Assembly: GCA_028821475.1 (NCBI GenBank)
Contig: JAPPGB010000171.1
Span: 12,727-76,726, forward strand
DNA from: Spirochaetaceae bacterium
GTDB lineage: Bacteria; Spirochaetota; Spirochaetia; SZUA-6; Bin103
Length of the DNA: 64,000 nucleotides
Direction: 5' to 3'
The translations under genes and the position numbers were made by a program. The notes below the pieces were generated by a model. The model was not told where the DNA came from and made no database searches. It saw only the letters and a program-made list of their open reading frames with translations. Numbering within the stretch: position 1 is the first letter of the stretch; the number at the start of each line of letters is the position of its first letter. Below, one piece after another: positions 25,064 through 53,834 of this stretch.

Positions 25064-26524
25064 ATGACGCAACCGATCACCTACTACCGGGAGAAGTTCC
25101 GGCCGCAGTACCACTTTTCGCCGGAGCGGAACTTCACCAACGATCCGTGCGGACTGGTGTACTTCGACGGCGAGTACCACCTGTTCTACCAGTACAACCC
25201 GTTCGACCTCGACCAGGATCCCAATCTGCTCTACTGGGGTCACGCGATCAGTACCGACCTGCTGCACTGGCGCCACATGCCGCTGCAACTCGGCCCTGAC
25301 GACCTGGGGGGTATTTCGACCGGATGCGGCGTGGTGGACTGGCACGACACGTCAGGACTGTTCGGCGGCCGGCCGGGGCTGGTGCTGATCTACGTGTACG
25401 TGCGCTACGATGTGTGGGAAGCACCGGCCCTGGCGTACAGCAGCGACCGCGGGCGCACGTGGCACAAGCTGCACGACCGCAACCCGCTGCTCGATCCCGG
25501 CGAGCCGGGCCAGCTCAAGGACGCCAAGGTGTTCTGGCATGCGCCGACCGGGCGCTGGGTGATGGTGCTGACCAGCGACCAGTTGTGCCTGTATTCCTCC
25601 CCCAACCTGCTTGATTGGCGATTTGAGAGCGCCGTCGAAGGAGTGCGCAGCGAGTGTCCCGACCTGTTCGAGCTATCGGTCGATGGTGACACGAAGCCGT
25701 CAAAGTGGGTGCTCACTCTAGCGGGAAGATACTATCACCTCGGTTCGTTCGACGGGCGGACCTTCACGCCGGAGACGGAAGCGATCCCGATGAACTTCGG
25801 TCCCGATGCTTACGCTTCCCAGACCTGGAGCGACGCGCCCGGCGGGCGCCGAATCATGATCGACTGGATGATGGCGTGGCGCTACGCCCGCCGCCTCGAC
25901 ATCGTTCCCACGCGCCCCTGGAACGGCTCGATGTCACTGCCGCGCGAGCTGACGCTGCGGACCACCGCCCACGGCGTACGTCTGTTTCAGAATCCGATTG
26001 CGGTGGCCGCGCTGCGCGAGCAAAGTTGCCTGCACGAGGGGATCACCGTTCGTGAGGGCACGCCGTTCAAGCCGGACCTGGACGGAACGTGCGTCGAGAT
26101 CGAGGCCGAGTTTCGAGTCGGCAGCGCCACACGCTTCGGCCTTGAGGTGATGGCCAGCGAGCGCACCATCTACGTGTTCGCGCATCGCAGTCACCGCATC
26201 GCCGGCGAGCGCACGCGGATCACCTACGACGTGGCGGCGGCGGAACTGGCGGTCGATCGGCGCACCGCCGGCACCGTGTACGACGAGGAGTTCGCTCAGG
26301 AATACCGGGCGCCGCTGGCGCCGTCCGACGGCCGCATCGTCCTGCGCGTGCTGACCGATTGGTCGTCGGTGGAGACGATCGCCAACGGCGGTGAGGTGGT
26401 GATCTCGACGCTGGTCTTCCCCACCCCGTTCGGCGGCGGGATCCGCGTGTTTGCCAGCGGCGGTTCGGTGACTCTCGAGCGGCTGCGCATTCACCGGCTT
26501 CGTTCAGTCTGGAACGACGCATAA
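25064..26524 (+). CDS. glycoside hydrolase family 32 (beta-fructofuranosidase/fructanase-like), divergent catalytic motifs
   Basis: YHFSPERNFTNDPCGLVYFDGEYHLFYQYNP, ECPDLF; the NDPNG box is NDPCG and the RDP box is KDA. Confidence 0.82.
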   Translation: MTQPITYYREKFRPQYHFSPERNFTNDPCGLVYFDGEYHLFYQYNPFDLDQDPNLLYWGHAISTDLLHWRHMPLQLGPDDLGGISTGCGVVDWHDTSGLFGGRPGLVLIYVYVRYDVWEAPALAYSSDRGRTWHKLHDRNPLLDPGEPGQLKDAKVFWHAPTGRWVMVLTSDQLCLYSSPNLLDWRFESAVEGVRSECPDLFELSVDGDTKPSKWVLTLAGRYYHLGSFDGRTFTPETEAIPMNFGPDAYASQTWSDAPGGRRIMIDWMMAWRYARRLDIVPTRPWNGSMSLPRELTLRTTAHGVRLFQNPIAVAALREQSCLHEGITVREGTPFKPDLDGTCVEIEAEFRVGSATRFGLEVMASERTIYVFAHRSHRIAGERTRITYDVAAAELAVDRRTAGTVYDEEFAQEYRAPLAPSDGRIVLRVLTDWSSVETIANGGEVVISTLVFPTPFGGGIRVFASGGSVTLERLRIHRLRSVWNDA

Positions 26525-26551: not shown

Positions 26552-27865
26552 ATGACCAATCTGCGCAGCGCATTGCACCAGTTCCATGCCGACGTGTACC
26601 GGCACCTGGTCGCTTCCACCCTGGTGGGATTCAGCTACTTCGGGTTCGTGACGGTGCTGCTCAACCTGTACCTGTTGCGCCTGGGCTACGGCACCGACTT
26701 CATCGGCCTGGTGAATGGCAGCACGGCGATCGCCTTCGCCGCCTCCTCGCTTCCGGCCGGTGCGTTCGGCAGCCGCTTCGGGATGCGGCGCGCGGTGGTC
26801 GGAGGGATGGGATTCCTGGCCGCCGGCGTGACGCTGGTGCCGATCGTGGCGCTGCTGCCGGCGGGTGGCACGCGCGACGTCGCCATCATCGCCATGCGGC
26901 TGCTGTCGGGGATCGGGTTTTCCCTCTACATGGTCAACTCCTACCCGTACCTGGTGGCGGCGACCGACGTCCGTGACCGTCCCTACGCGTTCGCTTTGCT
27001 GGCCGCGATACCGCCGGTGGCCGGCTTTGCCGGGAGTATCATCTCGGGTGCCTTGCCCGGGTGGATCGCGAACGGCTTGCGGCTGGACAGCGCGGATCCT
27101 CTGCCGTTCGCTCTCATCCTGGTATTTTCCGGGGTGATCCTGGTGCCCAACCTGTGGATCGTGGCCCGCACGCGCGACCTGGACCCGCCGAAGCGGCGCC
27201 GCACCGGCACCGCGCGGCGCCGTACCGCCCGCGAGGTGCGCCGCGCCGACGGTGCCTTCTTTCTGCTGGTCTTCTTCCTGGGCATCACCGCGCTGCTGCG
27301 CATGGCGGGCGAGAGCGCCGCCCGGTCGTTTTTCAACGTCTACCTGGAACTGGATCTGGGTGCGTCGACGTCGCGCATCGGCCTGCTGCTGGCGTTCGGG
27401 CAACTGGCGGCGGGGCCGGCGGCGCTGTGCGCCCCGGCGATTGCGGCGCGCGCGGGCAAGGTGCCGGTCATCGTCGTCACCACCGCGATCACCGCCGCCA
27501 GCTTGGTGATCATGGCGCTGGTGCCGCATTGGTTGGCGGCGGGCATCGGCTTTACCCTGGTGGTCGGCATGCGCTCGGTCACCCAGTCGGTTACCAGCCT
27601 GGTACACATGGAGATCGTGCCGGCGAGCCGGCGCGGGCTCACCTCGGGGGTGACGTCGATGTCGATGGGGCTGGGGTTCAGCTCGATGGCACTCGGCGGC
27701 GGCTACCTGATCCCGGCACTGGGATTCCCGGGTCTCTACCTGCTGGGCGCCCTCATTACCGCGCTTAGCGCACTGATCTTCTGGCAGTACTTCCGCGTGC
27801 CGCAGGGCGAGTACCGGCTGACCGCCGAACAGCCGGCCGCCACCGTTCCGGCGCAGCGCTCGTGA
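26552..27865 (+). CDS. MFS transporter (paralog 1)
   Basis: 12-TM prediction by eye. Shares about two-thirds identity with the next gene. Confidence 0.8.
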   Translation: MTNLRSALHQFHADVYRHLVASTLVGFSYFGFVTVLLNLYLLRLGYGTDFIGLVNGSTAIAFAASSLPAGAFGSRFGMRRAVVGGMGFLAAGVTLVPIVALLPAGGTRDVAIIAMRLLSGIGFSLYMVNSYPYLVAATDVRDRPYAFALLAAIPPVAGFAGSIISGALPGWIANGLRLDSADPLPFALILVFSGVILVPNLWIVARTRDLDPPKRRRTGTARRRTAREVRRADGAFFLLVFFLGITALLRMAGESAARSFFNVYLELDLGASTSRIGLLLAFGQLAAGPAALCAPAIAARAGKVPVIVVTTAITAASLVIMALVPHWLAAGIGFTLVVGMRSVTQSVTSLVHMEIVPASRRGLTSGVTSMSMGLGFSSMALGGGYLIPALGFPGLYLLGALITALSALIFWQYFRVPQGEYRLTAEQPAATVPAQRS

Positions 27866-27983
27866 GCCATGGCAGTCCGACGAACACCGGCTGCATGCGA
27901 GCATGCGACGCCGGGTTCCGTCACGGGCTGCCGGAAGTTGACCGCCGCACGGTAGCAGCCGGTCAGCCGGAGTCGAGCGGACC

Positions 27984-29261
27984 ATGACCAACCTGCGCCA
28001 GGCACTGCGCACCCTCCACCCCGACGTGTACCGGTACCTGTTCGCCATGGGCATCGTGGGGTTCAGCTACTTCGGCTTCGTTTCGGTGCTGCTCAACCTG
28101 TACCTGCTGCGGCTCGGCTACGGCACCGACTACATCGGCCTGGTCAACGGCGGCATTGCCCTTGCCTTCGCGGCGTGCTCCCTGCCGGCGGGCGCAATCG
28201 GAGGGCGCCTCGGGATGCGCCGTACCGCGGCGATCGGCATGGCCCTGGTGGCGGCGGGAATGACACTCGTCCCGGTGGCCGGCACCATCCTGTCCGGCAC
28301 GCCGCGCGACGTGGGCATCATCGCCATGCGCGTGCTCTCCGGAATGGGGTTTGCCTGCTACATCGTGAATGCCTATCCCTACATGGTGGCGGCCACCGGC
28401 CCCCGGGAGCGGACCTACGCGTTCGCATTCATGTCCGCGCTGCCGCCGCTCACCGGCTTCGCCGGCAGCATCGTCTCCGGCGTGCTGCCGGGCTGGATCG
28501 CGCCCCTGCTCGGGCGGGATCTGAGCCACCCGGAGCCGTTCGCGGTCGCCCTGATCCTGGCGGGGGTGGTCCTGCTGCCGACCGTTCCCGCGGTGGCGCG
28601 CACCAGCGACCGCGAGCCGGCAAAGCGCGGCCCGCCGCAGGCGGAGGATATCGGTCCGTCGCCCGGCGGGCGGAGCGCGGAAGGCGCCCTGTACGCGTTG
28701 ATCTTCGTGCTTGCGTTCACCGCCCTGCTGCGCTCCGCCGGCGAAGGGGCGGCGCGCACGTTCATCAACGTCTACCTGGAGGTGGACCTCGCGGCTTCGC
28801 CGGCGCGCATCGGGGTGCTGCTTGCAATCGGAACGGTGGCCGCGGGACCGGCTGCACTGATCGCACCGGCACTGGCCGCGCGCGCCGGCAAGGTACCGGT
28901 GATCGTGGTCACCGGCCTGCTTACCGCTGCCGGCATGGTGATCCTGGCAACCGTCCCGCACTGGGCCGCGGCGGGACTCGGCTTCACGCTGGTGGTCGGA
29001 CTGCGGTCGATCACCCAGTCGGTGTCCGCGGTACTGCACATGGAGATCGTGCCGGCGAGTCGGCGCACGGTTACCTCGGGAGTGATGGCGATGGCGATGG
29101 GCATGGGCTTCATGTCGATCTCGTTCGCCGGCGGCTACCTGATCCCGGCCCTCGGCTTCCCGGGCTTCTATCACCTGGCCACGGCCACCACCGTCGTCAG
29201 CGCACTGATCTTCTGGCTCTACTTCCGCATCCCCCGCGGCGAGTACCAGGCCCGCCCTTGA
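27984..29261 (+). CDS. MFS transporter (paralog 2, tandem duplicate)
   Basis: MTNLRQALRTLHPDVYRYLF...GFSYFGFVSVLLNLYLLRLGYGTDYIGLVNG is nearly identical to the N-terminus of paralog 1. Confidence 0.8.
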   Translation: MTNLRQALRTLHPDVYRYLFAMGIVGFSYFGFVSVLLNLYLLRLGYGTDYIGLVNGGIALAFAACSLPAGAIGGRLGMRRTAAIGMALVAAGMTLVPVAGTILSGTPRDVGIIAMRVLSGMGFACYIVNAYPYMVAATGPRERTYAFAFMSALPPLTGFAGSIVSGVLPGWIAPLLGRDLSHPEPFAVALILAGVVLLPTVPAVARTSDREPAKRGPPQAEDIGPSPGGRSAEGALYALIFVLAFTALLRSAGEGAARTFINVYLEVDLAASPARIGVLLAIGTVAAGPAALIAPALAARAGKVPVIVVTGLLTAAGMVILATVPHWAAAGLGFTLVVGLRSITQSVSAVLHMEIVPASRRTVTSGVMAMAMGMGFMSISFAGGYLIPALGFPGFYHLATATTVVSALIFWLYFRIPRGEYQARP

Positions 29262-42001: not shown

Positions 42002-43207
42002 TCAGTCGGCGATCACCGCTGGCGCCAAGTCTCCGATCGACGCCCCCAGGCGATCGGCGTTGCCGTGGCCGTTCGACTTCTCCGCCGGTCGTTGCGCCGT
42101 GGCCGGCAGCGGCACGTCGTACTGGTAGCCGGGCTCGACCTGCTGCCGGCGCCAAGTGGCGCGCATCTCCCGCCAGGCGGCGAATACCCACTTGGGCTCG
42201 GGGGTGTCCGCCGCGATCGCCTTGCCGAGGCGGCGCAGGTTGTAGCACGGCACGCCGGCGTACATGTGATGCTCCATGTGCCAGTTCATGCGCCAGTACA
42301 GGAACGTGCTGAGCGGGTCGAGCTTGATGGAGCGCACGCACTTGCGGAAGTCGGCCACGTTGGTGCGCAGCCCGCAATGCATCGGCAGGTGGGTGACGTA
42401 GCGCCAGAAGTTGGCGATGAATATCGGCAGGCTGACCAGCACCGGCAGCAGCCAGAGCTGAAACACGATTGCCGCGGCCAGCACCAGGGCGTGGAACAGC
42501 AGGATCAGGCGCGCCCAGCGTACCGACTTGCGCAGCTCCTCGGGGTGGCCGGCGTAGACCGCTGTCAGCCACTCCGCCTTGGGGGATGCGAGGCCGCCCC
42601 GATCGCCGGTACCCGTTCTGTTCAGTGCCCTCTTGACGGTGTACCCGATGACCGGAATCAACCCGGCGGTATGGGGGCCGCCGGTGAAGTTGAGGGTAAG
42701 GATCTGCACCAGGAAGAAGAAGCGGAACGTGGGCGAGCGCGGCAACACCTCCTCGCGGTCGCCGTTCGGGTGCAGCGTGTAGCGATGGTGATAGGTGTGG
42801 CTCATCGCGTAGTCGTAGAAGTTGAACCAGGTGAGCAGCGCGTAGAAGCGCTTGAAGAACTGGTTGAGCGCCTTGGTACGAAACACGGTGCCGTGGGTCA
42901 GCTCGTGGTTGGCCGCCGCGTAGATGCTGCCCATGGTGCCGTGCAGGAACAGCGCCGCCGCGAACCCGACCCACATCTGCCGGGCAAACAGGTGCCAGGT
43001 CAGCAGTCCGCTCGCCGCCAGCAGGACCAGCGGCCCCACCGACTGGAACCAGCCCTTCAGGTCGCTGCGCTGCATCAGGCCGCGCAGCACGCGTGGATCG
43101 ATCGGACTCCGGTACCACCGGACTCGCATCGTACGCCGAACCTCGTCCAGTGGTGGGTAGGCCGCGGGAGTGCCGTTTGCCGGCGCCGTGGTTGCCGCCT
43201 GTGCCAT
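42002..43207 (-). CDS. membrane fatty-acid desaturase family protein (di-iron, three His boxes)
   Basis: His boxes HELTHG, HTYHH and HMEHH. Multiple TM segments. Confidence 0.85.
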   Translation of the reverse strand: MAQAATTAPANGTPAAYPPLDEVRRTMRVRWYRSPIDPRVLRGLMQRSDLKGWFQSVGPLVLLAASGLLTWHLFARQMWVGFAAALFLHGTMGSIYAAANHELTHGTVFRTKALNQFFKRFYALLTWFNFYDYAMSHTYHHRYTLHPNGDREEVLPRSPTFRFFFLVQILTLNFTGGPHTAGLIPVIGYTVKRALNRTGTGDRGGLASPKAEWLTAVYAGHPEELRKSVRWARLILLFHALVLAAAIVFQLWLLPVLVSLPIFIANFWRYVTHLPMHCGLRTNVADFRKCVRSIKLDPLSTFLYWRMNWHMEHHMYAGVPCYNLRRLGKAIAADTPEPKWVFAAWREMRATWRRQQVEPGYQYDVPLPATAQRPAEKSNGHGNADRLGASIGDLAPAVIAD

Positions 43208-43475: not shown

Positions 43476-44999
43476 ATGCGCCTGTGCCGCGACGGGCAGG
43501 TGCTGCGACACTTCGACATCGACTTGGCGGACGGCAGCGGCGACTACCAGGTGTTCAGCGACCTGCAGCCGTTTCTCGGGCAGCGGCTGCAGGTGGAGTT
43601 CGAGGGTACCGGAGCGGCGTCGCTCGACGGCCTGCGGCTGGCGGCCGAGCCGGTGCCGCCGGAGTCGCTGTACCGAGAGCGGCTGCGGCCGCAGTTCCAC
43701 TTCTCTTCGCGGAGAGGCTGGAACAACGACCCCAACGGCCTGTTCTGCTTCGGCGGCGAGTATCACCTGCTGTATCAGCACAATCCGTACAGCGTCGAAT
43801 GGGGCAACCTGCACTGGGGGCACGCGGTGAGCCGCGACCTGGTGCACTGGAGCGAGCGGCCTGTGGCCCTGTACCCGGATGCGCTGGGCGCCATGTCCAC
43901 CGGCAGCACCGTGGTGGATTACGCCAACACCTCCGGCCTGGGCAGCCCGGGCGCACCGGCGATCGTCGCCGTCTACACCGCCGGCCACGCTTCCTGGACG
44001 CCGGGCTTCGTGCAGTGCCTGGCCATTTCCACCGACGGCGGAACTACCTGGAGCAAGTACGACGGCAACCCGGTGATCGAGCACATCGTGCACCGCAATC
44101 GCGATCCCAAGGTGATCTGGCATCCCGAGACCGGGCGCTGGGTGATGGTGCTGTACATGGACCGTTTCGACTATGCGATCTTCACCTCGCCCAATCTGCT
44201 GCAGTGGGAGCGCGTCAGCGACCTGGAGCTGCCGCGTTGCACCGAGTGCCCGGAGCTGTTTCCACTCGCCCTGGACGGGGAGCAGAAGTGGGTGTTCTGG
44301 GGAGCCAACACGACCTACCTGGTGGGCTCCTTCGACGGGCGCACCTTCCACCCGGAGCAGGGGCCGCGCAAGCTGCAGCCGGACGGCAACGGCTATGCCG
44401 CGCAGACCTGGAGCGACGTGCCGCCGGAGGATGGCCGCCGGATCCAGATGGCGTGGCTGCGGCAGCAGATGCCGGGCATGCCGTGGGGCCAGTGCATGAC
44501 CGTTGCGCACAGCCTGGGGCTGCAGCGCCGCGGCGATCAGGTGGTGCTCACCGCGGACCCGGTGCGGGAGTTGGAGAGCTTGCGGGCGGAGCGCTGGCAG
44601 GTTGCCGATACCGAGATTGCGCCGGCGCGGCCGCTGGAGGCCGAGGTGAGCGGCGAGCTGCTGGACGTGGAGGCGGAGTTGGAACTGGGCTCTTCCGACT
44701 GCGTGGGCGTGGTGGTGCGCGGCGTACCGGTGTTCTACGATCGGCGCCTCGGTGCGCTGTGCTGCGGCGAGTACACGGTGCCGATGCCGGAGCCGGACGG
44801 GCCGTTCGCCTGGCGCATCCTGGCCGACCGCGCATCGTTGGAGCTGTACGCGGACGGCGGCGCGGTGAACATCGCGGCCGGCGTCATCCTGCCCGAGTGG
44901 GAGCGCTCGGTGCGGCTGGTGGCGGCCGGAGGCAGCGCGGTGGCGAAGCGGGTGACGGTGGCGCGGTTGCGGTCGGCGTGGCCGTTGGTGGAGGTTTGA
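43476..44999 (+). CDS. glycoside hydrolase family 32 (canonical motifs)
   Basis: WNNDPNGLFCFGGEYHLLYQHNP, RDPKVIWH and ECPELF catalytic triad boxes. The start was trimmed to MRLCRDG because the upstream gene ends at 43207. Confidence 0.85.
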   Translation: MRLCRDGQVLRHFDIDLADGSGDYQVFSDLQPFLGQRLQVEFEGTGAASLDGLRLAAEPVPPESLYRERLRPQFHFSSRRGWNNDPNGLFCFGGEYHLLYQHNPYSVEWGNLHWGHAVSRDLVHWSERPVALYPDALGAMSTGSTVVDYANTSGLGSPGAPAIVAVYTAGHASWTPGFVQCLAISTDGGTTWSKYDGNPVIEHIVHRNRDPKVIWHPETGRWVMVLYMDRFDYAIFTSPNLLQWERVSDLELPRCTECPELFPLALDGEQKWVFWGANTTYLVGSFDGRTFHPEQGPRKLQPDGNGYAAQTWSDVPPEDGRRIQMAWLRQQMPGMPWGQCMTVAHSLGLQRRGDQVVLTADPVRELESLRAERWQVADTEIAPARPLEAEVSGELLDVEAELELGSSDCVGVVVRGVPVFYDRRLGALCCGEYTVPMPEPDGPFAWRILADRASLELYADGGAVNIAAGVILPEWERSVRLVAAGGSAVAKRVTVARLRSAWPLVEV

Positions 45000-45004
45000 G
45001 AACG

Positions 45005-45832
45005 ATGTCCGAGCTTGATGTAACTCCGATTGCGGGCGCCCTGGGAGCCGAGGTGCGCGGCGTGGACCTCGGCGGCTCGCTGGACGCCGCCACCGTGGCC
45101 GAGATCCGGCAGGCGCTCCTGGACCACTTGGTGATTTCTTTCCCGGCGCAGGAGTTGACGCCGAAGTCGCTGCTCGCGTTCGCACGCTGCCTCGGCGATC
45201 CGCTCGAGTATCCGCAGTTGCAGGGCCTGCCGGAGGCGCCGCTGGTGACCGCGGTTACCAAGCTGGAGCACGAGCGGGTGGCCTTCGGCGGCGTGTGGCA
45301 CACCGACACCAGCTACCTGGAGCAACCGCCGCTCGGCAGCCTGCTGTACGCGGTGGAGCTGCCGCCATACGGCGGCGACACCCTGTTCGCCAACCAGTAC
45401 CTGGCCTACGAGCGCCTGTCCGAGGGGTTGCGCGAGGCCCTTGCCGGCATGACCGCCATCTACACGTCGACCAAGCCGGCGGTGGCGGCCACGCGCGAGG
45501 ACCGCTTGCGCGAGCGCGGCGTGCAGGCCAAGGTGCTCACCAGCGAACACCCGGTGGTGCGCACCCACCCGGAGACGGGGCGCAAGGCGCTGTACGTCAA
45601 CTGCGGGCACACGTCGCACTTCAAGGGCTGGAGCGAGGCGGAGAGCCAGCCGCTGCTGGAGTACCTGTTTCAGCACCAGGTGCAGCCGCAGTTCACCTGC
45701 CGCCTGCGCTGGCAGCCCGGCACCCTGGCGATCTGGGACAACCGCTGCACCCAGCACCTGCCGATCAACGACTACGACGGCTTCCGCCGCGTCATGCACC
45801 GCGTCACCCTGGCCGGCGACCAGCCGGCGTAA
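45005..45832 (+). CDS. TauD/TfdA family Fe(II)/2-oxoglutarate-dependent dioxygenase
   Basis: WHTDTSYLEQPP (HxD) and C-terminal ...QHLPINDYDGFRRVMHRVTL resemble taurine dioxygenase / alkylsulfatase AtsK-type enzymes. Confidence 0.85.
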   Translation: MSELDVTPIAGALGAEVRGVDLGGSLDAATVAEIRQALLDHLVISFPAQELTPKSLLAFARCLGDPLEYPQLQGLPEAPLVTAVTKLEHERVAFGGVWHTDTSYLEQPPLGSLLYAVELPPYGGDTLFANQYLAYERLSEGLREALAGMTAIYTSTKPAVAATREDRLRERGVQAKVLTSEHPVVRTHPETGRKALYVNCGHTSHFKGWSEAESQPLLEYLFQHQVQPQFTCRLRWQPGTLAIWDNRCTQHLPINDYDGFRRVMHRVTLAGDQPA

Positions 45833-45856
45833 CCTCGCGGCGGCGAGCCGCCGGTG

Positions 45857-46189
45857 TCACTCCTTGAGAGCGAGGTGGACGATGACCGGGACGGCCACAC
45901 CCGCGGGCAGCGAGCCGGTCAGGCGCAGCCAGCCGCCGAAGTGGCGGACGCGTGCGAAGGTAGTCGGCCCCGGCGTGCTCGGGAGCGCGATCTCGGTTCC
46001 CTCGTCGGTCCAGTGGATGCCGTCGGGAGCGATCTGCACACGGGCGGCGGTGCCGGCAGGCAGTTCGCCGTCGATCAGCCGGATGAAGAAGATCGCCTCG
46101 CGTGCCCAGGCGGACTCGTACGGCTCGGTGGCGTACTCGCCCTCCCAGGTGGTGCCCAACTCGATAGTCGCGGTGTGACTCTGTCTCAC
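45857..46189 (-). CDS. hypothetical protein (110 aa), last gene of GH32-3 operon
   Basis: ORF abutting the upstream gene (10-nt gap); no recognisable motif. Confidence 0.5.
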   Translation of the reverse strand: MRQSHTATIELGTTWEGEYATEPYESAWAREAIFFIRLIDGELPAGTAARVQIAPDGIHWTDEGTEIALPSTPGPTTFARVRHFGGWLRLTGSLPAGVAVPVIVHLALKE

Positions 46190-46199
46190 TGATTATTCC

Positions 46200-47054
46200 T
46201 TACGGGGCGGTGGAGACCGCAACGCTGTCCAGGTAGAGGAACGCGCGCGTGGCGGCGTCGCTCTCCACGAAGAATACGACGTTCAGCATCGACCACAGGT
46301 TGGGCATCGCCGGCAGCCGCATCGGTTCGATGCCGGCCACGTCCAGGTCGCGCTCGTTGCAGCGGAAGCCCAGAAACCGCATGCCGGCCAAGTCGAAGTC
46401 CAGCCGCAGGTAGTACCAGTTGTGCTTGGTGGCGATCTCGTTGTAGCAGAGGCGCTGGCCGCCACCGGGAATGTCGACCCAGTTGCTCGACTTCAAGTGG
46501 AAGTGCGACCAGGTCTTGCCGTGGGTACCGATGTCGACCAGCGGCTCGCGCTCGTTCTTGTACTGCCAGCGCTCCACGCGCCGGCCCTCGAAGGCGTTGA
46601 GGTAGCGGATGTGCGGCATCACCCGCAACGGCTCGGCCGCCTGGCCGTCGGCGTGCTGCAGGTCGAGCACCACCCCGAACGCGCGCACCGCCGTCTCGCC
46701 GAGTTCGAGTTCGCTCGCCTCCGGCTTGAAGGTCACGATCGCCTCCACCCGCACTGGTCCGGCGGTGCGAAACGTGGAGCGCTTGATCGCGGTGCAGAAG
46801 GTGCCCGGCTTGGCGCGCGTGGCCAGCTTCAGCGCGTAGGCGCCGCCGATCGCCCCGGAGGTGCCGGCGTCCCACATGGTCAGGTTGCTCAACATCGGCG
46901 GGCGCATGTCCATGTACTCCGGCAGCATCGCGTCGATCCGGTCCTCGTAGTTGCCGATCAGCGCCCCCCAGCCGTTCACCCCGTCGTTGAAGTCGTCAAA
47001 GAACAGCAACCGCTGCAACGGTTCGAACAACTGCAGCATCGTGTATGCCTGCAT
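46200..47054 (-). CDS. hypothetical protein (284 aa), possibly lectin/jelly-roll-like, in GH32-3 operon
   Basis: Long ORF (MQAYTMLQLFEPLQRLLFFDDFNDGVNGWG...NWYYLRLDFDLAG...) 78 nt downstream of GH32-3; no recognisable catalytic motif. Confidence 0.55.
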   Translation of the reverse strand: MQAYTMLQLFEPLQRLLFFDDFNDGVNGWGALIGNYEDRIDAMLPEYMDMRPPMLSNLTMWDAGTSGAIGGAYALKLATRAKPGTFCTAIKRSTFRTAGPVRVEAIVTFKPEASELELGETAVRAFGVVLDLQHADGQAAEPLRVMPHIRYLNAFEGRRVERWQYKNEREPLVDIGTHGKTWSHFHLKSSNWVDIPGGGQRLCYNEIATKHNWYYLRLDFDLAGMRFLGFRCNERDLDVAGIEPMRLPAMPNLWSMLNVVFFVESDAATRAFLYLDSVAVSTAP

Positions 47055-47132
47055 GCCCCGGACTATCGCACACCGCCCCGGTGCCTACAACGTGGGTGGG
47101 AACGCTTGCAGTCCCCGAACAGGGAGCCGCGA

Positions 47133-48731
47133 CTACCAGGCGCCGCGCAGCGGCCACGCGGAAACGGTCTTGACGCTGGCGACTCCGCCCTCGGCGAAGA
47201 GGTCGAGGCCGGTGGCGGAGGGGTCGGGATAGAGGCGGTCGGTGAGCGCGGCGCCGCCGCAGTACACCTCCAGGACGGAACGGTCCACGAAGATGCGCAG
47301 GGTCACGGTGCCTGACGCTCCGTGAACGGTCCCGGCGGGCGCGGTGACCCGCGGCGCCTGCATTTTGTCAGCGGCTCCCTGCAACTCGCGTCGCTCGTTG
47401 GCGGCGGGGTTGGCGTAGACCTGCTCCGGGCCGAGCAGGCGGTCGATGCCGATGCGGTTGCTTGCCGGCTCGTACCAGACCCGCGCGGCCCGGCCGTCCG
47501 GTGACAGTCGCACCGCGGCGCCGAAGCGGTGAGCGGAGGTGCGGGACAGGTCGGCGGTCAACTCCAGTTCCAGGGCATCGCCGGACACTTGGTCCAGGTA
47601 GCCGCGGGTGCCGGGGGCGATGGCGAGGTCCCGTTGCCGCTCGGACGGCCCGCGCAGGGATTCGAGTTCAGGTATCGGGCGCTGGATGAGCTCGTCGCCG
47701 GACAGCTCCAGGACGCGGGGGATGCTGTGGGCGCCGATCCAGTACGGAACCGTGTCTACCGGCGAGCGGGCGCCGATCACCCAGCCGTGCAGCAGGCGGC
47801 GCGGTGCACCGCCCGGGCCCTTGTCGTCGACCATGTGCGGATTGACGCAGTAGAAGAAGCCCTGGTCGATGAAGCGCGGTTCGCGCCGGTCGGGATGGAA
47901 ACGGCGCGCCGCACGGTCGTAGGTGCCGGTCCAGTAGGGGTTGCCGGCGGCGCCGACCATCAGGACGGCACGGTCGTTGCTCGGTACGCTGTCGGGTGCA
48001 CCGAACGGGACCAGGTAGGGGAGTTCCCAGTAGCGGCGTCGGGGGTCGTGGTCCTCGGCGATGGTGCCGCGGTGGGTCCAGTACTCCAGGTCGGGCGAGG
48101 TCCACAGGTGGGCGGCGCCGCGCCGGGCGGTGCCCTCCCCCACCGCGCCGCCGATGAGCTGTTGCCACAACTCGCCTTCCTTCCACACCTGGGCGTCCCA
48201 GTGCACGGGCGAGGCGGCGTTGGGGCGCTGCTCGTTGCCCATCACCTTGTGCTTGTGCCAGGTCAGCCAGCCGTCGGTGCTGCGCGCCAGGATGCCGTAG
48301 GTCTCCTCGTGGCCACCGACGTTGCCGGTGTACAGCGCGCAGGGAAACCCGTCGTCGTCGATGAACGTGTTGCCGGAGTAGACGCCGGCCACGTCGTAGC
48401 GGCTGTCGGGCCACATCGCCACCGGCCAGTCTTCCCAGTGCAGCAGGTCGGCGGAGCTGGCGTGTCCCCAGCAGATTCCGCTCTCGCTGCCGTTCGCGTA
48501 CACCGGGCGATACTGGTAGAACAGGTGGTAGACGCCGTCGTGGTAGATGGGGCCGTTGGGATCGTTGATCCAACCCTCCGGCGCCGTGAAGTGGTAGATC
48601 GGCCGGTGCGGGTCGCCTGCCGCCATCCAGCGGCGCAGTTCCCGGGCGGCGCCGCCAAAGAGCGCACGATCCTTGCTGGTAACCGCGACGCGAAAGTCGC
48701 GCACCTCCCGGGGCCACTGGTCCGCGTTCAT
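47133..48731 (-). CDS. glycoside hydrolase family 32 (third copy)
   Basis: WINDPNGPIYHDGVYHLFYQYRP. ATG at ~48731 with an AGGG SD. Overlaps the upstream oxidoreductase stop by 4 nt. Confidence 0.85.
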   Translation of the reverse strand: MNADQWPREVRDFRVAVTSKDRALFGGAARELRRWMAAGDPHRPIYHFTAPEGWINDPNGPIYHDGVYHLFYQYRPVYANGSESGICWGHASSADLLHWEDWPVAMWPDSRYDVAGVYSGNTFIDDDGFPCALYTGNVGGHEETYGILARSTDGWLTWHKHKVMGNEQRPNAASPVHWDAQVWKEGELWQQLIGGAVGEGTARRGAAHLWTSPDLEYWTHRGTIAEDHDPRRRYWELPYLVPFGAPDSVPSNDRAVLMVGAAGNPYWTGTYDRAARRFHPDRREPRFIDQGFFYCVNPHMVDDKGPGGAPRRLLHGWVIGARSPVDTVPYWIGAHSIPRVLELSGDELIQRPIPELESLRGPSERQRDLAIAPGTRGYLDQVSGDALELELTADLSRTSAHRFGAAVRLSPDGRAARVWYEPASNRIGIDRLLGPEQVYANPAANERRELQGAADKMQAPRVTAPAGTVHGASGTVTLRIFVDRSVLEVYCGGAALTDRLYPDPSATGLDLFAEGGVASVKTVSAWPLRGAW

Positions 48732-49798
48732 CCCTGGTACCTCTTGACGATGTCGATGATCAGGCCAATGTCGTCGCGGGCGGCGGCCAGCGGCGTGCGA
48801 CACGGTACGCGCGCCACGATGCAGTCGTGGAAGTGGCGCAGCTCGCGCAGGAAAGGGCTCTCCCAGTCGACCGCCGGCTCGGTGCGGTAGGCGGTGCCGT
48901 GCTCGTCGGTGCCCTGAACTACCACCTGCGACAGAATGCCGCGCGCGAAGCCGGTCGGATAGGAAAGCAGCACGCGCCGCCGGTCGCCGTACACCTCCAG
49001 CGTCTCCCGGAAGTCCCACAGGTCGGGCAGATCGATCCAGGTGGCGACGCAGCGCGCGCCGTCCGGGTACTGCAGCGTGAAGGTAACGGCGCGGCCGTCG
49101 CGCCAGATCTCGGTGCTGACCACGGCGCTCGGCACGCCCAGCAGAACCCGCAGACCGTACAGGTCGTGGATCGCGCTGCCGGACAGCAGGTTGAACGTGC
49201 GCTGCACCATGGGCGAGACGTCGCCGATCGCTCTGCGGACCGCCGCGCTGCGCTCAGTCCGGGTCTGCTCCACCAGGCCCGCGGGGTGGTCGTCGAAGCG
49301 GCGAATGTCGAACTGCCGCAGGTGAAGCGCGTTGTCGGGGTGCAGGTGATTCACCTGCACGAGGCGCACCCGGTCGATGTCGCGCACCGCCTGTTGCGCC
49401 AGCTCGAAGGCCGGGTCGTATACCTTCATGTAGCCGGCCTGGGCGACCGTGCCGGCGGCCGCCTGCGCGGCGATCAGGGCGTCGATCTCGTCGAGCGAGA
49501 AGCACAGCGGTTTCTCGATGAACAGGTGCTTGCCCGCCTGCAGGACGGCGATGGCCGCCTCGGTCTTGGGATCGGTGTGGCACAGCAGCACCGCATCCAG
49601 GTCGGTCGCCAGCAGGTCGCGCCAGTCGGTGACGTGGCGCGGCACGTGAAACCGGCGCGCTGCATCGGCCGCCGCCCGTGGCGAGACGTCGCACACGATC
49701 GCTACATCGAACTGCTCGTCGAGCGCCGCAAGGTTGGGCAGATGGTGCACCTGGGCGATGGCGCCGCAGCCGACGACTCCGATCCTGACCCGCTTCAT
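48728..49798 (-). CDS. Gfo/Idh/MocA family oxidoreductase
   Basis: MKRVRIGVVGCGAIAQVHHLPNLAAL Rossmann N-terminus and a ...EKPLCFSLDEIDALIAA core. Confidence 0.8.
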   Translation of the reverse strand: MKRVRIGVVGCGAIAQVHHLPNLAALDEQFDVAIVCDVSPRAAADAARRFHVPRHVTDWRDLLATDLDAVLLCHTDPKTEAAIAVLQAGKHLFIEKPLCFSLDEIDALIAAQAAAGTVAQAGYMKVYDPAFELAQQAVRDIDRVRLVQVNHLHPDNALHLRQFDIRRFDDHPAGLVEQTRTERSAAVRRAIGDVSPMVQRTFNLLSGSAIHDLYGLRVLLGVPSAVVSTEIWRDGRAVTFTLQYPDGARCVATWIDLPDLWDFRETLEVYGDRRRVLLSYPTGFARGILSQVVVQGTDEHGTAYRTEPAVDWESPFLRELRHFHDCIVARVPCRTPLAAARDDIGLIIDIVKRYQG

Positions 49799-49874
49799 GA
49801 CGTGAGCCGCGGCTTTGCCACCCTGGACGATCCGCTGCGCGGTCGCCACCGGCTCGTCTCGGTCGGGAGCCGAT

Positions 49875-50579
49875 TCATGGCGCGGCCCCGCCCGGCTGCG
49901 CGCTCCCCGCGGGTAAATCCGCCTCGTGCGGGTCCACGCTGCGCGCCGCGAAGTCATTCCAGGCGGCGGCCAGCTCCATGGTGCGGCCGAACAGCTCCGA
50001 CAGTGCCTCCCACGTTGCATTGCGCGCCGCGTGCGCGGCGGCCTCGTCGCCCGCATCCACGGCCCGCCGGTAGCCGGTGAGCTGCTCCCGTTGCACTTGT
50101 TCGGCCGCGGCAGCCGCCCGCGTCACGGCGGCGGCCGCCGCCGATTGCCGCGCCGCCAGCTCCCCGGTAGGAGTGGTGCAGTCCGGCTGCCGGTCGTACG
50201 CCGTTGCCGCCGCGAAGCGCGGCGGCTTCCTGCTGCCGTCTTCGTTCCAGAAGGTGTGCGTGGGCTGGACATGCGGCGTGACCGACAGGAACATCACCAC
50301 CTCCTCGTCGCCGACGTTGCGCACGGTGTGATACTGGTCGGTCAGCGCGATGCACAACTCGCCCGGACCGAGCACCGCCCGCTCGCCGTCGATGTCGAAC
50401 TCCGCGCGCCCCTGCAGGATGAGGAAGATCTCGTGGCCGAGGTCGTGGGTGTGGCCGGCGTTGAACTGGCCGACCGCCATCTTCAGGAAGCGGCAGCGAA
50501 TCTGCGGCGTCACCAGGAGGTTCGCGATGTCGCTACGGTAGTCGTAGACTTTCAGAGCCATGATTTCGATGCCGATCAT
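49875..50579 (-). CDS. cupin-domain protein
   Basis: Cupin-like core (GHTHDLGHEIFLILQGRAEFDIDGERAVLGPGELCIALTDQYHTVRNVGDEEVVM) with an Ala-rich C-terminus. The start is uncertain (MIGIEI vs MALKVY). Confidence 0.6.
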   Translation of the reverse strand: MIGIEIMALKVYDYRSDIANLLVTPQIRCRFLKMAVGQFNAGHTHDLGHEIFLILQGRAEFDIDGERAVLGPGELCIALTDQYHTVRNVGDEEVVMFLSVTPHVQPTHTFWNEDGSRKPPRFAAATAYDRQPDCTTPTGELAARQSAAAAAVTRAAAAAEQVQREQLTGYRRAVDAGDEAAAHAARNATWEALSELFGRTMELAAAWNDFAARSVDPHEADLPAGSAQPGGAAP

Positions 50580-50676
50580 GCTCCCGGTTGCCGGCACGCG
50601 CAAGCCCGGCCCGGCGGGTCCCGGACGCGCCGCCGATCGGGGTATGCATGGCATGGCGGCGGGAGTATCGTGCGGC

Positions 50677-51567
50677 ATGGTGCGCTATCCCGACCACACC
50701 CGGCCACCGGTGCCGATGACCGATGAGCAGAAGTTCTTCTTCGACCTGCGCGGCTGGCTGGTGCTGCCGGCGGTGCTCTCGGACGCCGAGCTGGAGGCGA
50801 TGCGCGCCGAGTGCTACGCCGGGGTAGACCGGCTGGCCGAGCGTGCCGGCGGCGTGAAGGATGGCCACTCGGGCGTGCTGCAGACGCTGCTCGACCATCC
50901 GGCGGTGGCCGGCGTGCTGGCGGAGATCCTGTCCGAGGAGCCGTACGACCTGGACGAGTGCTACGGGTTCCGGTGCGAAGACTCGCACGTGATCATGCGG
51001 CCGCCCGGCTGGCGCAAGACCCGGCGCGGCGACCAGGGGATGCCGCACGTGGTGCGCCCGCCGCAGATGGCCAACGCGATGCGCTACCAGGTGGCGGGCA
51101 ACCGGATCTTCTCCGGCCTGACCCGCGTGGTGTGGGAGCTGGAAGAGGTCCGGGAGGGCCAGGGCGGCACGTCGTTCCTGAGCGGCTCGCACAAGGCGCA
51201 CTTCGGTTACGGCGGCCGCGACCGGTTCGCATCCGACGCCGGGGGCTCGCCGTGGCTGGAGCGCATCCACGACGCCATGGACACCTACGGCTGCCCGGCC
51301 GGCTCGGTGGTGATCTTCACCGAGAGCCTGCTGCACGCCGCCAACGACTGGACCAACCCCGACAACGGTCGCTGCGCCATCTTCCAGTGCTACAACTCGC
51401 TGTGGGCGCAGTGGCACCGCCCCAACGTCACCCACGAGCAGGTGGAAGCGATGCCGCCGAAGCGGCGCACGCTGTTCCGGGGCGTCTGGCAGCTCGGCGG
51501 CAACACCGCCTACTCGGCCGACAACCGCACGCTGATGCGCCCGTCGCCGCACGTGCCCACCGGCTGA
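50677..51567 (+). CDS. phytanoyl-CoA dioxygenase (PhyH) family Fe(II)/2OG oxygenase, copy 1
   Basis: N-terminal MTDEQKFFFDLRGWLVLPAVLSDAELEAM, ...GTSFLSGSHK... and ...VVIFTESLLHAANDWTNP are typical of the PhyH family. Confidence 0.8.
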   Translation: MVRYPDHTRPPVPMTDEQKFFFDLRGWLVLPAVLSDAELEAMRAECYAGVDRLAERAGGVKDGHSGVLQTLLDHPAVAGVLAEILSEEPYDLDECYGFRCEDSHVIMRPPGWRKTRRGDQGMPHVVRPPQMANAMRYQVAGNRIFSGLTRVVWELEEVREGQGGTSFLSGSHKAHFGYGGRDRFASDAGGSPWLERIHDAMDTYGCPAGSVVIFTESLLHAANDWTNPDNGRCAIFQCYNSLWAQWHRPNVTHEQVEAMPPKRRTLFRGVWQLGGNTAYSADNRTLMRPSPHVPTG

Positions 51568-52666: not shown

Positions 52667-53494
52667 TCAGGCCGGATTGGATTCGGTTTCCGGGAACAGC
52701 GAGGTGGTCCAGGTGCCGGGGTTGGCCGGCTCCTGGAACAGGATCTGCTGGCGCGGCGTGAGCGGCACCGAGGCCGGCGGGCGCACGCGGCGCGCCGACC
52801 AGGCGAGGTGCGACTGGCAGTACTTGTAGAGCAGCGTGCGGCGTTGGTGGGGACCCGTCCAGGGTGCCGTGCCATGCGTCAACGCTTCCGAGAACAGCAC
52901 CACCGATCCCGCCGGCGCCTCCGGAATCACGACGCCCGGCGCAAGGGAGTCTCCTTCCAACATCTCCCAGCGTCCCTGGTTTACCGTCGGGATGGGGTCC
53001 GGGCGCACGAAGTTGCTCTTGTGGCTGCCCGGCACGCAGCAGAAGCCGCCGTGGCCCGGGCCGGTGTCCACCAGGTTCCACGACACCACGGTGAACGCAT
53101 TGTGAATCCTGCCGTTGCGCACGTGGTAGTACTCCGCCGGCGAGTATGGTGCGTTGCCGCCGTGCAACTGGTGGGCGCCCATGCCCGTCTCCATGTTGAT
53201 GCCGTACAGGCGGTCGAGCCGAAACCAGTCACCGAGCGTGAGCTGCAGCAGCGGCATGATCCGGGGATGGTCGAGCAGATCGCAGAACGGCTTGCCCCAG
53301 TCCAGAAACCCCGGACACTCCGGCGCTCCCCCGGCCGCTGCGCCGAAGCGGATCTTCTCGTGCGGCGGCGGCAACCCCTGGGCGTCGATGAGCCGGTTCA
53401 GCTCATCGATTTCAGCCCGTTCGAGGACATCGGGAATCACCATGTAACCCGCCAGGTCGAACAGGTAGCGCCGCATCTCCAGGTCATGGTCCAT
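52667..53494 (-). CDS. PhyH family Fe(II)/2OG oxygenase, copy 2
   Basis: MDHDLEMRRYLFDLAGYMVIPDVLERAEIDEL..., ...GGFCCVPGSHKSNF... and ...VVLFSEALTHGTAPWTGP. The track ORF has a non-homologous N-terminal extension, so it was trimmed. Confidence 0.75.
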   Translation of the reverse strand: MDHDLEMRRYLFDLAGYMVIPDVLERAEIDELNRLIDAQGLPPPHEKIRFGAAAGGAPECPGFLDWGKPFCDLLDHPRIMPLLQLTLGDWFRLDRLYGINMETGMGAHQLHGGNAPYSPAEYYHVRNGRIHNAFTVVSWNLVDTGPGHGGFCCVPGSHKSNFVRPDPIPTVNQGRWEMLEGDSLAPGVVIPEAPAGSVVLFSEALTHGTAPWTGPHQRRTLLYKYCQSHLAWSARRVRPPASVPLTPRQQILFQEPANPGTWTTSLFPETESNPA

Positions 53495-53834
53495 CGTCCA
53501 GCCACTATGCGGACCGAGCGAGCCGGGCGTCAATCCGCCGCGGCAGGCACCAGCAGGCACCCGAGCGATGGCGATGATCTCCGGGCTTGAGGCAGCGACC
53601 GGGACCTTGCTCACGGTGCTCTCAGACTGCGATCTCAAGTAGCCACGGAGAAACAACCCGCTCAGCTCAGGCGCGGTTGCCGCGGGCGAGGCGCGACTAG
53701 TGGGTGGGCGACCTGGATGGCTCAGTGGCAACCCCAGGTGGAGCAGGCCACCGGCTTGCCGGGCGAAGGCCGGCATGTCGCACGACCTCCACCCGGCTCT
53801 CGTTCAAACCGGCCCGCCGACCGGCGATGGGCTG

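What the first reader, a model, noticed from the sequence alone, without database searches (positions are those of the whole stretch)
45857..47054. Two uncharacterised proteins co-transcribed with GH32 and Gfo/Idh/MocA oxidoreductase
Operon order on the minus strand is Gfo/Idh/MocA (4-nt overlap) -> GH32-3 -> 284-aa hypothetical (78-nt gap) -> 110-aa hypothetical (10-nt gap). Neither hypothetical protein has motifs I can place. The larger one has a jelly-roll/lectin-like composition. Tight coupling to a GH32 suggests carbohydrate-binding or auxiliary roles in fructan-like substrate processing.
Basis: inference. Interest (0 to 1): 0.55.

Follow-up and report, generated by a model that had tools for sequence, protein, structure and literature searches.

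The report
Conserved DUF6772 plus small-partner gene pair
The two "hypothetical" genes are a real, strongly conserved two-gene cassette (a lectin-fold DUF6772 protein plus a 110-residue beta-sandwich partner) that always travel together and usually sit in sugar-uptake and sugar-oxidation gene clusters, but their link to the GH32 fructosidase is peculiar to this one lineage.

Summary
Both ORFs are real genes. They show a strong codon-position GC signal, mostly synonymous substitutions against relatives, and hundreds of homologues. The 284-aa protein is not motif-less: it is a full-length member of Pfam DUF6772 (E 1e-111). The 110-aa protein is a distant, sub-threshold relative of DUF6385.

The only conserved linkage is between the two genes themselves. 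They are adjacent and co-oriented in every intact copy with enough flank, about 65 loci across six or more phyla. GH32 lies next to the pair only in this window and one 92%-identical sister genome. In twelve Spirochaetia MAGs carrying a cassette that is 87-89% identical in DNA in the three aligned, homology stops at the cassette's edges.

Elsewhere the pair is embedded in sugar ABC or MFS transporter operons with GntR/LacI regulators. The accompanying enzymes are SDR, Gfo/Idh/MocA, FAD or ADH oxidoreductases and acid-sugar dehydratases.

My best reading is a cytoplasmic two-subunit carbohydrate-active enzyme of oxidative sugar catabolism, with the reaction still unknown. It is not a GH32 accessory. 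The family has no literature and no solved structure. Interest is moderate.

The parts
46200..47054 (-). DUF6772 family gene (284 aa), predicted ConA-like lectin/glucanase beta-sandwich. This is the large subunit of the cassette.
   Evidence: Pfam PF20562 E 1e-111, full length. 767 homologues. AF2 pLDDT 80, pTM 0.84, all-beta. Foldseek matches L-type lectins, GH16 and calreticulin at probability 1.0, TM 0.35-0.45. Family-wide invariant residues listed.
45857..46189 (-). 110-aa partner gene (GTG start), a small 8-strand beta-sandwich and distant relative of DUF6385.
   Evidence: 1136 homologues. Adjacent to DUF6772 in all intact loci. AF2 pLDDT 96. All 27 of 27 family members hit PF19912 weakly, best E 1e-5. 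Foldseek gives weak matches to GOLD, CBM32, CBM35 and F5/8C domains.
46190..46202 (-). Junction between the two genes: TAA stop of DUF6772 overlapped by an AAGGA ribosome-binding site, 7 nt before the GTG of the partner gene.
   Evidence: Read directly from the sequence.
45852..47078 (-). Exact block of DNA homology (89%) shared with Spirochaetia MAG L002, whose flanks are unrelated. This marks the cassette as a unit of relocation.
   Evidence: blastn of window 44000-50000 against L002, L007, L010 and L013.
47133..48731 (-). GH32-3 (cytoplasmic, divergent; RDP motif replaced by WDA). It is an upstream co-oriented neighbour specific to this lineage, not part of the conserved cassette.
   Evidence: Pfam Glyco_hydro_32N and 32C. 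Motifs. Adjacent to the pair only here and in L001.
48728..49801 (-). Gfo/Idh/MocA oxidoreductase, overlapping the GH32-3 start by ATGA. It is absent from the sister genome L001.
   Evidence: Pfam PF01408. Overlap shown. No tblastn match in L001, and L001 homology to the window ends at 48766, just upstream of the GH32-3 start. Not orthologous to the Gfo genes near the pair in other phyla, 24-33% identity.

Best explanation
The two genes form an autonomous, vertically and horizontally propagated two-gene cassette. It encodes a cytoplasmic two-protein unit: a ConA-like DUF6772 protein carrying the conserved polar site, and a 110-aa beta-sandwich partner. The unit most likely works as a heteromeric carbohydrate-active enzyme in the catabolism of imported sugars or sugar derivatives. 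It most likely performs a non-redox step, such as cleavage, elimination/hydration, or ring or anomer conversion. That step would sit next to NAD(P)- or FAD-dependent oxidation and acid-sugar dehydration. In this window the cassette has landed downstream of a GH32 gene and is probably co-transcribed with it, but that association is a lineage-specific rearrangement and not the cassette's defining partnership.

Shown: the genes are real; the pairing is conserved; the folds are as stated; the proteins lack signal peptides; the neighbourhood statistics are as reported.

Inferred: physical complex formation; enzymatic rather than binding function; the type of reaction.
For: Pairing:
- DUF6772 and the partner are adjacent and co-oriented in 45 of 47 genome loci.
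- The two exceptions are a 5'-truncated pseudogene and a copy cut by a contig end.
- The pair is also adjacent in all the divergent-branch and plasmid loci examined, with DUF6772 34-53% identical to the window protein in the six loci compared (L056-L061), including an uncalled ORF in L057 and Nonomuraea.
- Both gene orders occur, and in Litorilinea and in L050 one or two genes are inserted between them. Linkage itself is therefore what is conserved.

Unit of relocation: homology to L002 ends at the cassette borders.

Context:
- Alphaproteobacterial plasmids carry a FadR/GntR regulator, an MR_MLE protein, CUT1 sugar ABC permeases and binding proteins, then DUF6772, the partner and an SDR, sometimes with an SMP-30 lactonase. 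Intergenic gaps within the operons are 0-4 nt.
- The MR_MLE neighbour is closest to acid-sugar dehydratases and cycloisomerases, and the SDR to gluconate-5-dehydrogenase and KduD-like enzymes.
- In other lineages the pair follows the two ABC permeases directly: L058 (with FAD oxidoreductase, SDR and sulfatase), L060 (LacI, Fe-ADH, AFOR) and L042.
- An MFS sugar transporter plus LacI flanks the pair in Nonomuraea, and an MFS transporter flanks it in Caldilineaceae.
- Gfo/Idh/MocA genes lie nearby in the window, Poribacteria, Caldilineae and a second Spirochaetia clade.

Enzyme-like conservation: about 25 residues are at least 95% conserved over 99 sequences, including K76, K91, R92, E104, D131, R144, R150, Q164, Q200, N205, E206, K210, N212, N258 and D276.

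Location: no signal peptide.

Precedent: DUF1080 proteins have a GH16-like fold and act as 3-keto-glucoside lyases/hydratases alongside Gfo/Idh/MocA oxidoreductases (bioRxiv 10.1101/2024.03.25.586180).
Against: - No biochemical or genetic data exist, and no paper mentions either DUF.
- In several lineages the pair sits among housekeeping genes: YceI, citrate synthase and NAD synthase in L002; an amino-acid permease and PdxST in L055; MetRS in L052 and L054. No third partner is obligatory.
- Oxidoreductases, ABC transporters, PhyH and sulfatases are very abundant in these genomes, so part of the co-occurrence may be background. The neighbouring Gfo genes are not orthologous to one another.
- Fold matches are only at superfamily level (TM 0.35-0.45), and the top hits are non-catalytic lectins.
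- There is no GH16 ExDxxE motif and no DUF1080 Pfam hit.
- Complex formation was not modelled.
Confidence: 0.5

Rival explanations
1. Non-catalytic lectin-like pair. The two beta-sandwich proteins bind a sugar or another protein in the cytoplasm and act as a sensor, chaperone or regulator of the neighbouring transporter or pathway.
For: The best structural matches of DUF6772 are cargo and legume lectins and calreticulin. The partner resembles CBM32, CBM35 and discoidin modules and shares an 'SxDGxxW' motif with them. No recognised catalytic motif is present.
Against: Cytoplasmic non-enzymatic lectins inside bacterial catabolic operons are unusual. Identity of about 60% between phyla and a large set of invariant charged residues are more typical of enzymes. 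The position directly after the ABC permease genes is where the first cytoplasmic catabolic enzyme usually lies (established operon logic, an inference).
Confidence: 0.2
2. One reading: carbohydrate-binding or auxiliary proteins dedicated to GH32 and to fructan-like substrate processing.
For: In this window and in L001 the pair lies 78 nt downstream of GH32-3 on the same strand with no terminator consensus between them. The fold is lectin-like.
Against: GH32 is absent from the +/-7 to 10 kb neighbourhood of the pair in every other locus examined, about 65 loci across six or more phyla. That includes twelve Spirochaetia MAGs carrying a cassette that is 87-89% identical in DNA in the three aligned. 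The other two GH32 genes of the window have no such partners.
Confidence: 0.07
3. The pair has a function unrelated to carbohydrates, for example stress or envelope housekeeping, or it is a selfish or defence-type mobile cassette. It would then lie in catabolic islands only because those regions are plastic.
For: Flanks are variable and sometimes housekeeping. The cassette relocates as a unit, and a remnant second copy exists in L002. It is located on plasmids in Alphaproteobacteria.
Against: There are no PADLOC, PHROG or NCBIfam hits, and the relocated homology block ends at the cassette borders with no extra sequence alongside it. The pair is inserted in frame with operon structure, with 0-4 nt gaps between the permeases and the SDR, in at least five lineages. 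Both genes are under strong purifying selection.
Confidence: 0.13

Closest known systems
Pfam DUF6772 (PF20562)
   Same: The 284-aa protein matches the model end to end (positions 9-282 of 284) at E 1e-111, and all homologues carry the same single-domain architecture.
   Different: The family has no assigned function, no literature and no solved structure. Its obligatory pairing with a 110-aa partner is not part of the family description available here.
Pfam DUF6385 (PF19912)
   Same: Every one of 27 partner-protein homologues gives a weak hit centred on the 'vqISpDGihW' region, best E 1e-5. A few database homologues are pre-annotated with PF19912.
   Different: The window protein scores 15.2 bits against a cut-off of 26.8, and only 24 of its residues align. 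It is at best a divergent sister group.
DUF1080 3-keto-glycoside lyases/hydratases working with Gfo/Idh/MocA oxidoreductases (bioRxiv 10.1101/2024.03.25.586180)
   Same: Both have a ConA/GH16-like beta-sandwich without the Koshland glycosidase machinery, are encoded beside sugar oxidoreductases and sugar transport genes, and have a plausible non-hydrolytic role.
   Different: No DUF1080 Pfam hit appears in 28 members even at E up to 10, and no DUF1080 structure is among the top 50 fold matches. DUF1080 enzymes are single-chain and often periplasmic, whereas this unit has two proteins and is cytoplasmic. The resemblance is functional analogy only, and untested.
L-type lectins (Emp46/47, VIP36, ERGIC-53, legume lectins) and GH16 glucanases, within the ConA-like lectin/glucanase superfamily
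   Same: These are the best structural matches, Foldseek probability 1.0.
   Different: TM-scores are only 0.32-0.41 with 7-12% identity. There is no GH16 ExDxxE motif. About 70 N-terminal residues are conserved but modelled with low confidence and have no counterpart in these families.

Membership tests
Pfam DUF6772 (PF20562) | Full-length match to the family HMM above the gathering score (27 bits) | tested here: met
   373 bits, E 1e-111, residues 5-282 on profile positions 9-282 of 284.
Pfam DUF6385 (PF19912), for the 110-aa protein | Match above the gathering score (26.8 bits) | tested here: not met
   15.2 bits, E 0.023, 24 residues aligned. All 27 of 27 homologues nevertheless hit weakly, best E 1e-5, so a distant relationship is likely.
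ConA-like lectin/glucanase superfamily | Two-sheet jelly-roll beta-sandwich detectable by structure comparison | tested here: met
   AF2 model pTM 0.84, all-beta. 58 PDB matches at E <= 1e-3, all of the 50 listed being lectin, GH16, calreticulin or GH32-C type, TM 0.25-0.41. This is fold-level evidence only.
GH16 glycoside hydrolases | Catalytic ExDxxE motif on a central strand | tested here: not met
   The motif is absent from the window protein and from 34 of 35 diverse members.
DUF1080 / 3-keto-glycoside lyase-hydratase | Sequence membership in PF06439 | tested here: not met
   No hit in any of 28 members at E <= 10 (HMMER filters apply).
DUF1080 / 3-keto-glycoside lyase-hydratase | Activity on 3-keto-glycosides produced by a partner oxidoreductase | not testable with these tools
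   Requires an enzyme assay.
   GH32 lies within 7 kb of the pair only in the window and in L001, out of about 65 loci.
Two-gene DUF6772 plus partner cassette (defined here) | Adjacent, co-oriented genes for a DUF6772 protein and a protein of about 110 aa with the motif SxTxxxxxxxxWxGxxxxEPxExxWAxEAxxFxR...DGxxWxxEG...FGxWLR...LK | tested here: met
   Window 45857-47054. Seen in 45 of 47 genome loci and in all further loci.

The most novel reading that the evidence does not exclude
DUF6772 and its 110-aa partner form a previously unrecognised heterodimeric carbohydrate-active enzyme family on a ConA-like scaffold. It would catalyse a non-Koshland step, for example beta-elimination or hydration of an oxidised glycoside, or conversion of a lactone, ring form or anomer. 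That step would feed imported sugars into oxidative, non-phosphorylative catabolism in Alphaproteobacteria, Chloroflexota, Actinomycetota, Poribacteria and Spirochaetota. This would fill a missing step in operons of the type transporter, SDR, lactonase, MR_MLE.
Probability: 0.3. Interest if true: 0.7.

Novelty: new variant of a known kind. Interest (0 to 1): 0.5.

Why it matters
If the cassette is an enzyme, it would define a new two-subunit carbohydrate-active family with no solved structure and no literature. It is present in culturable soil Alphaproteobacteria and is common in sponge-symbiont-like MAGs. It would assign a function to a gene that is annotated only as "DUF6772 family protein/hypothetical protein" in sugar-acid operons. 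It also shows why a single-genome operon reading (GH32 coupling) can mislead: the informative linkage is pair-internal and to transporter and oxidoreductase genes.

Tried and rejected
- NCBIfam, PADLOC and PHROGs gave no hits for either protein.
- PDB sequence searches found nothing credible. I used profiles of the close family (A1), the partner (A2) and the wide family (A5). The only result was an 'SxDGxxW' motif-level similarity of the partner to CBM/F5-8C-type domains.
- Literature searches for DUF6772, DUF6385 and their Pfam accessions found nothing relevant. A search for PF12831 was uninformative.
- I looked for fusion proteins in the exhaustive representative search. The longer hits (P0248, P0250, P0337, P0373) are frameshifted read-throughs with low-complexity tails, not true fusions.
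- I tested whether a specific Gfo/Idh/MocA subfamily travels with the pair. It does not: the neighbouring Gfo genes share only 24-33% identity over partial lengths.
- I considered PhyH and sulfatase as conserved partners. A PhyH subfamily at about 42% identity recurs within 7 kb in the window, L001, Poribacteria and four Caldilineaceae loci. It is absent from most lineages, and these families are expanded in such genomes, so I left this as a weak association.
- The binding proteins of the linked ABC systems resemble di- and oligosaccharide or polyol binders only distantly, so the substrate could not be named.

Full report
**Observation**

The two ORFs exist as described: 46200-47054 (-, 284 aa) and 45857-46189 (-, 110 aa, GTG start).

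  - GH32 to the 284-aa gene: 78 nt.
  - The 284-aa gene to the 110-aa gene: 10 nt, with an AAGGA ribosome-binding site overlapping the TAA stop.
  - The Gfo/Idh/MocA stop and the GH32 start share ATGA.
- Pfam confirms the neighbours: GH32 N+C domains, GFO_IDH_MocA, a cupin, and PhyH and TauD dioxygenases.
- Both ORFs carry the codon-position GC signature of real genes in this 68% GC genome: 0.61/0.43/0.94 and 0.66/0.55/0.87.
- Against relatives, synonymous codon changes outnumber non-synonymous ones until identity falls to about 80%.
- Each protein has many homologues in public metagenomes: 767 and 1136 clusters.

**What the proteins are**

The 284-aa protein is a full-length member of Pfam DUF6772 (E 1e-111), so it is not without a recognisable signature.

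- The 110-aa protein has only a sub-threshold hit to DUF6385 (15 bits against a cut-off of 26.8).
- All 27 sampled homologues give the same weak hit, best E 1e-5. It is probably a divergent relative of DUF6385.
- Neither DUF appears in the searchable literature.
- Neither has a relative detectable by sequence in the PDB.

AlphaFold models from family alignments give the folds:

| Protein | Model quality | Fold | Structural matches |
|---|---|---|---|
| 110 aa | pLDDT 96 | 8-strand beta-sandwich | Diffuse matches to GOLD, CBM32, CBM35, F5/8C and capsid jelly-rolls |
| 284 aa (DUF6772) | pLDDT 80, pTM 0.84 | All-beta | L-type lectins (Emp46/47, VIP36, ERGIC-53, legume lectins), GH16 enzymes, calreticulin; probability 1.0 but TM only 0.32-0.41 |

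- Neither protein has a signal peptide.
- DUF6772 lacks the GH16 ExDxxE motif and shows no DUF1080 signal.

**Conserved linkage**

I fetched 47 genome loci and compared every window neighbour against them.

- DUF6772 and the 110-aa gene are adjacent and co-oriented in 45 of 47 loci.
- The two exceptions are a 5'-truncated pseudogene (L043) and a copy cut by a contig end (L044).
- The order is DUF6772 then partner in Spirochaetia, Poribacteria, Anaerolineae and Geminicoccus. It is reversed in Caldilineaceae.
- In Litorilinea aerophila and in L050, one or two unrelated genes are inserted between the two.

An exhaustive representative search showed a small family of 322 representatives (50% clusters). 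It includes divergent full-length members and no genuine fusions.

A profile of the divergent members recovered copies in culturable bacteria, including Agrobacterium sp. Azo12, Rhizobium sp. CG4 and Maritimibacter. Plasmid searches added Rhizobium sp. Q54, Terrarubrum, Chelatococcus, Roseomonas and Nonomuraea. In every one of these loci examined the partner gene is again adjacent. This includes an ORF that the gene caller missed in L057. The robust, phylum-spanning association is therefore internal to the pair.

**GH32 linkage**

GH32 is next to the pair only in the window and in L001, which is 92% identical in DNA over window 44000-48766.

- Twelve other Spirochaetia MAGs carry the cassette with unrelated flanks.
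  - In the three aligned at DNA level it is 87-89% identical.
  - In L002 homology begins 24 nt upstream of the DUF6772 start and ends 5 nt after the partner's stop (window 47078-45852).
  - The L002 neighbours are an arylsulfotransferase, YceI, citrate synthase and NAD synthase.
- The cassette has therefore been moved as a unit. Its position behind GH32-3 is a recent, lineage-specific juxtaposition.

**Recurrent neighbours elsewhere**

| Lineage / locus | Neighbourhood of the pair |
|---|---|
| Alphaproteobacterial plasmids and Maritimibacter | Divergent FadR/GntR regulator; then an MR_MLE-family gene, two CUT1 sugar ABC permeases, DUF6772, partner and an SDR, with 0-4 nt gaps within the operons. 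One or two SBP_bac_1 binding proteins, sometimes an SMP-30/gluconolactonase |
| Agrobacterium sp. Azo12 and metagenomic lineage L058 | FAD-dependent oxidoreductase (PF12831) plus SDR flank the pair; L058 adds a sulfatase |
| A Chloroflexota MAG (L060) | LacI, SBP, two permeases, the pair, Fe-ADH, AFOR |
| L059 | The pair followed by a Zn-ADH |
| Nonomuraea and Caldilineaceae | Beta-lactamase-fold hydrolase(s) and an MFS transporter (a sugar-type one plus LacI in Nonomuraea) |
| Litorilinea and L050 | HpcH aldolase, Gfo/Idh/MocA, Ldh_2 and Opp-type ABC genes |
| Poribacteria | Sulfatase, Gfo, two PhyH genes, a Kelch protein, Gfo, then the pair |
| Three lineages (L002; L055; L052 and L054) | Housekeeping genes |

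- The MR_MLE neighbour is most similar to acid-sugar dehydratases and cycloisomerases. The SDR is most similar to gluconate-5-dehydrogenase and KduD-like enzymes.
- The Gfo genes near the pair in different phyla are not orthologous, at 24-33% identity.

**Interpretation**

- Strict pairing, relocation as a unit, tight operon embedding and about 60% identity between phyla point to a two-protein functional unit.
- About 25 positions are at least 95% conserved across 99 diverse DUF6772 sequences. Many are charged or polar: K76, K91, R92, E104, D131, R144, R150, Q164, Q200, N205, E206, K210, N212, N258 and D276.
- Together these features suggest an enzyme rather than a passive binding module.
- The pair recurs directly after sugar-transporter permease genes, while the downstream oxidoreductase or dehydratase set varies. 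This suggests it acts early on an imported sugar derivative, in pathways that proceed by oxidation. That step is inference.
- One published precedent exists for a ConA/GH16-like protein doing non-hydrolytic chemistry beside Gfo/Idh/MocA oxidoreductases: the DUF1080 3-keto-glucoside lyase/hydratase (bioRxiv 10.1101/2024.03.25.586180). DUF6772 is not a member of that family by sequence, so this is analogy only.
- Alternative steps cannot be excluded: lactone, anomer or ring conversion, or a substitute for a later C-C cleaving enzyme.
- I put about 0.5 on "heteromeric carbohydrate-active enzyme of sugar catabolism". I put about 0.7 on the weaker claim that the pair is functionally tied to sugar or sugar-acid utilisation rather than to GH32.

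**Verdict**

The finding is real, and more interesting as a conserved two-gene cassette than as a GH32 accessory.

- Lectin-like fold and carbohydrate theme: supported.
- Coupling to GH32 or fructan: not supported.

It is a member of an already catalogued but wholly uncharacterised family. The obligatory partner and the operon pattern do not appear to have been described. Culturable, genetically tractable carriers make the function testable.

Noticed in passing
window 45852-47078 versus L002:9977-11203: DNA homology (89%) with related Spirochaetia MAGs is confined to the two-gene cassette and the flanks are unrelated, so the cassette has been relocated as a unit within this clade.
   Followed up: yes
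L002:13381-13572: A 64-codon fragment of DUF6772 (residues 166-227, 84% aa identity) lies about 2.5 kb downstream of the intact pair. It looks like the remnant of a second copy and was seen only in L002 among nine related loci.
   Followed up: partly
window 48728-50678 versus L001: The sister genome L001 (92% DNA identity over 44000-48766) lacks the Gfo/Idh/MocA and cupin genes that precede GH32-3 in the window. In L001 a PhyH gene lies about 200 nt upstream of GH32-3.
   Followed up: partly
window 25064-26524 (+), 43689-44999 (+), 47133-48731 (-): There are three GH32 paralogues, only 32-34% identical to GH32-3. GH32-3 has WDA and GH32-1 has KDA in place of the canonical RDP motif, and GH32-3 has WELP in place of ECP. 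The catalytic Asp/Asp/Glu are retained. None has an obvious signal peptide. GH32-1 is followed by two paralogous ORFs (26552-29261) whose N-termini are hydrophobic; I did not check their family.
   Followed up: partly
L043:10001-10576: A MAG labelled Firmicutes carries only a 5'-truncated DUF6772 (from about residue 88, preceded by stop codons) and no partner gene. It is probably a pseudogene.
   Followed up: yes
window 42002-43207, 44999-45832, 50560-51567, 52667-53776: The region holds a dense set of oxygenase-type genes around the cassette: a membrane FA_desaturase-like protein, one TauD and two PhyH Fe(II)/2OG dioxygenases. A PhyH subfamily about 42% identical to 52667-53776 recurs within 7 kb of the pair in Poribacteria and four Caldilineaceae loci.
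   Followed up: partly
L016:11491-12366 (Poribacteria): The gene downstream of the pair in Poribacteria encodes another ConA-like protein (Pfam Laminin_G_3).
   Followed up: no
window 45833-45856: The partner gene and the convergent TauD gene end only 24 nt apart with no terminator-like hairpin detected.
   Followed up: no
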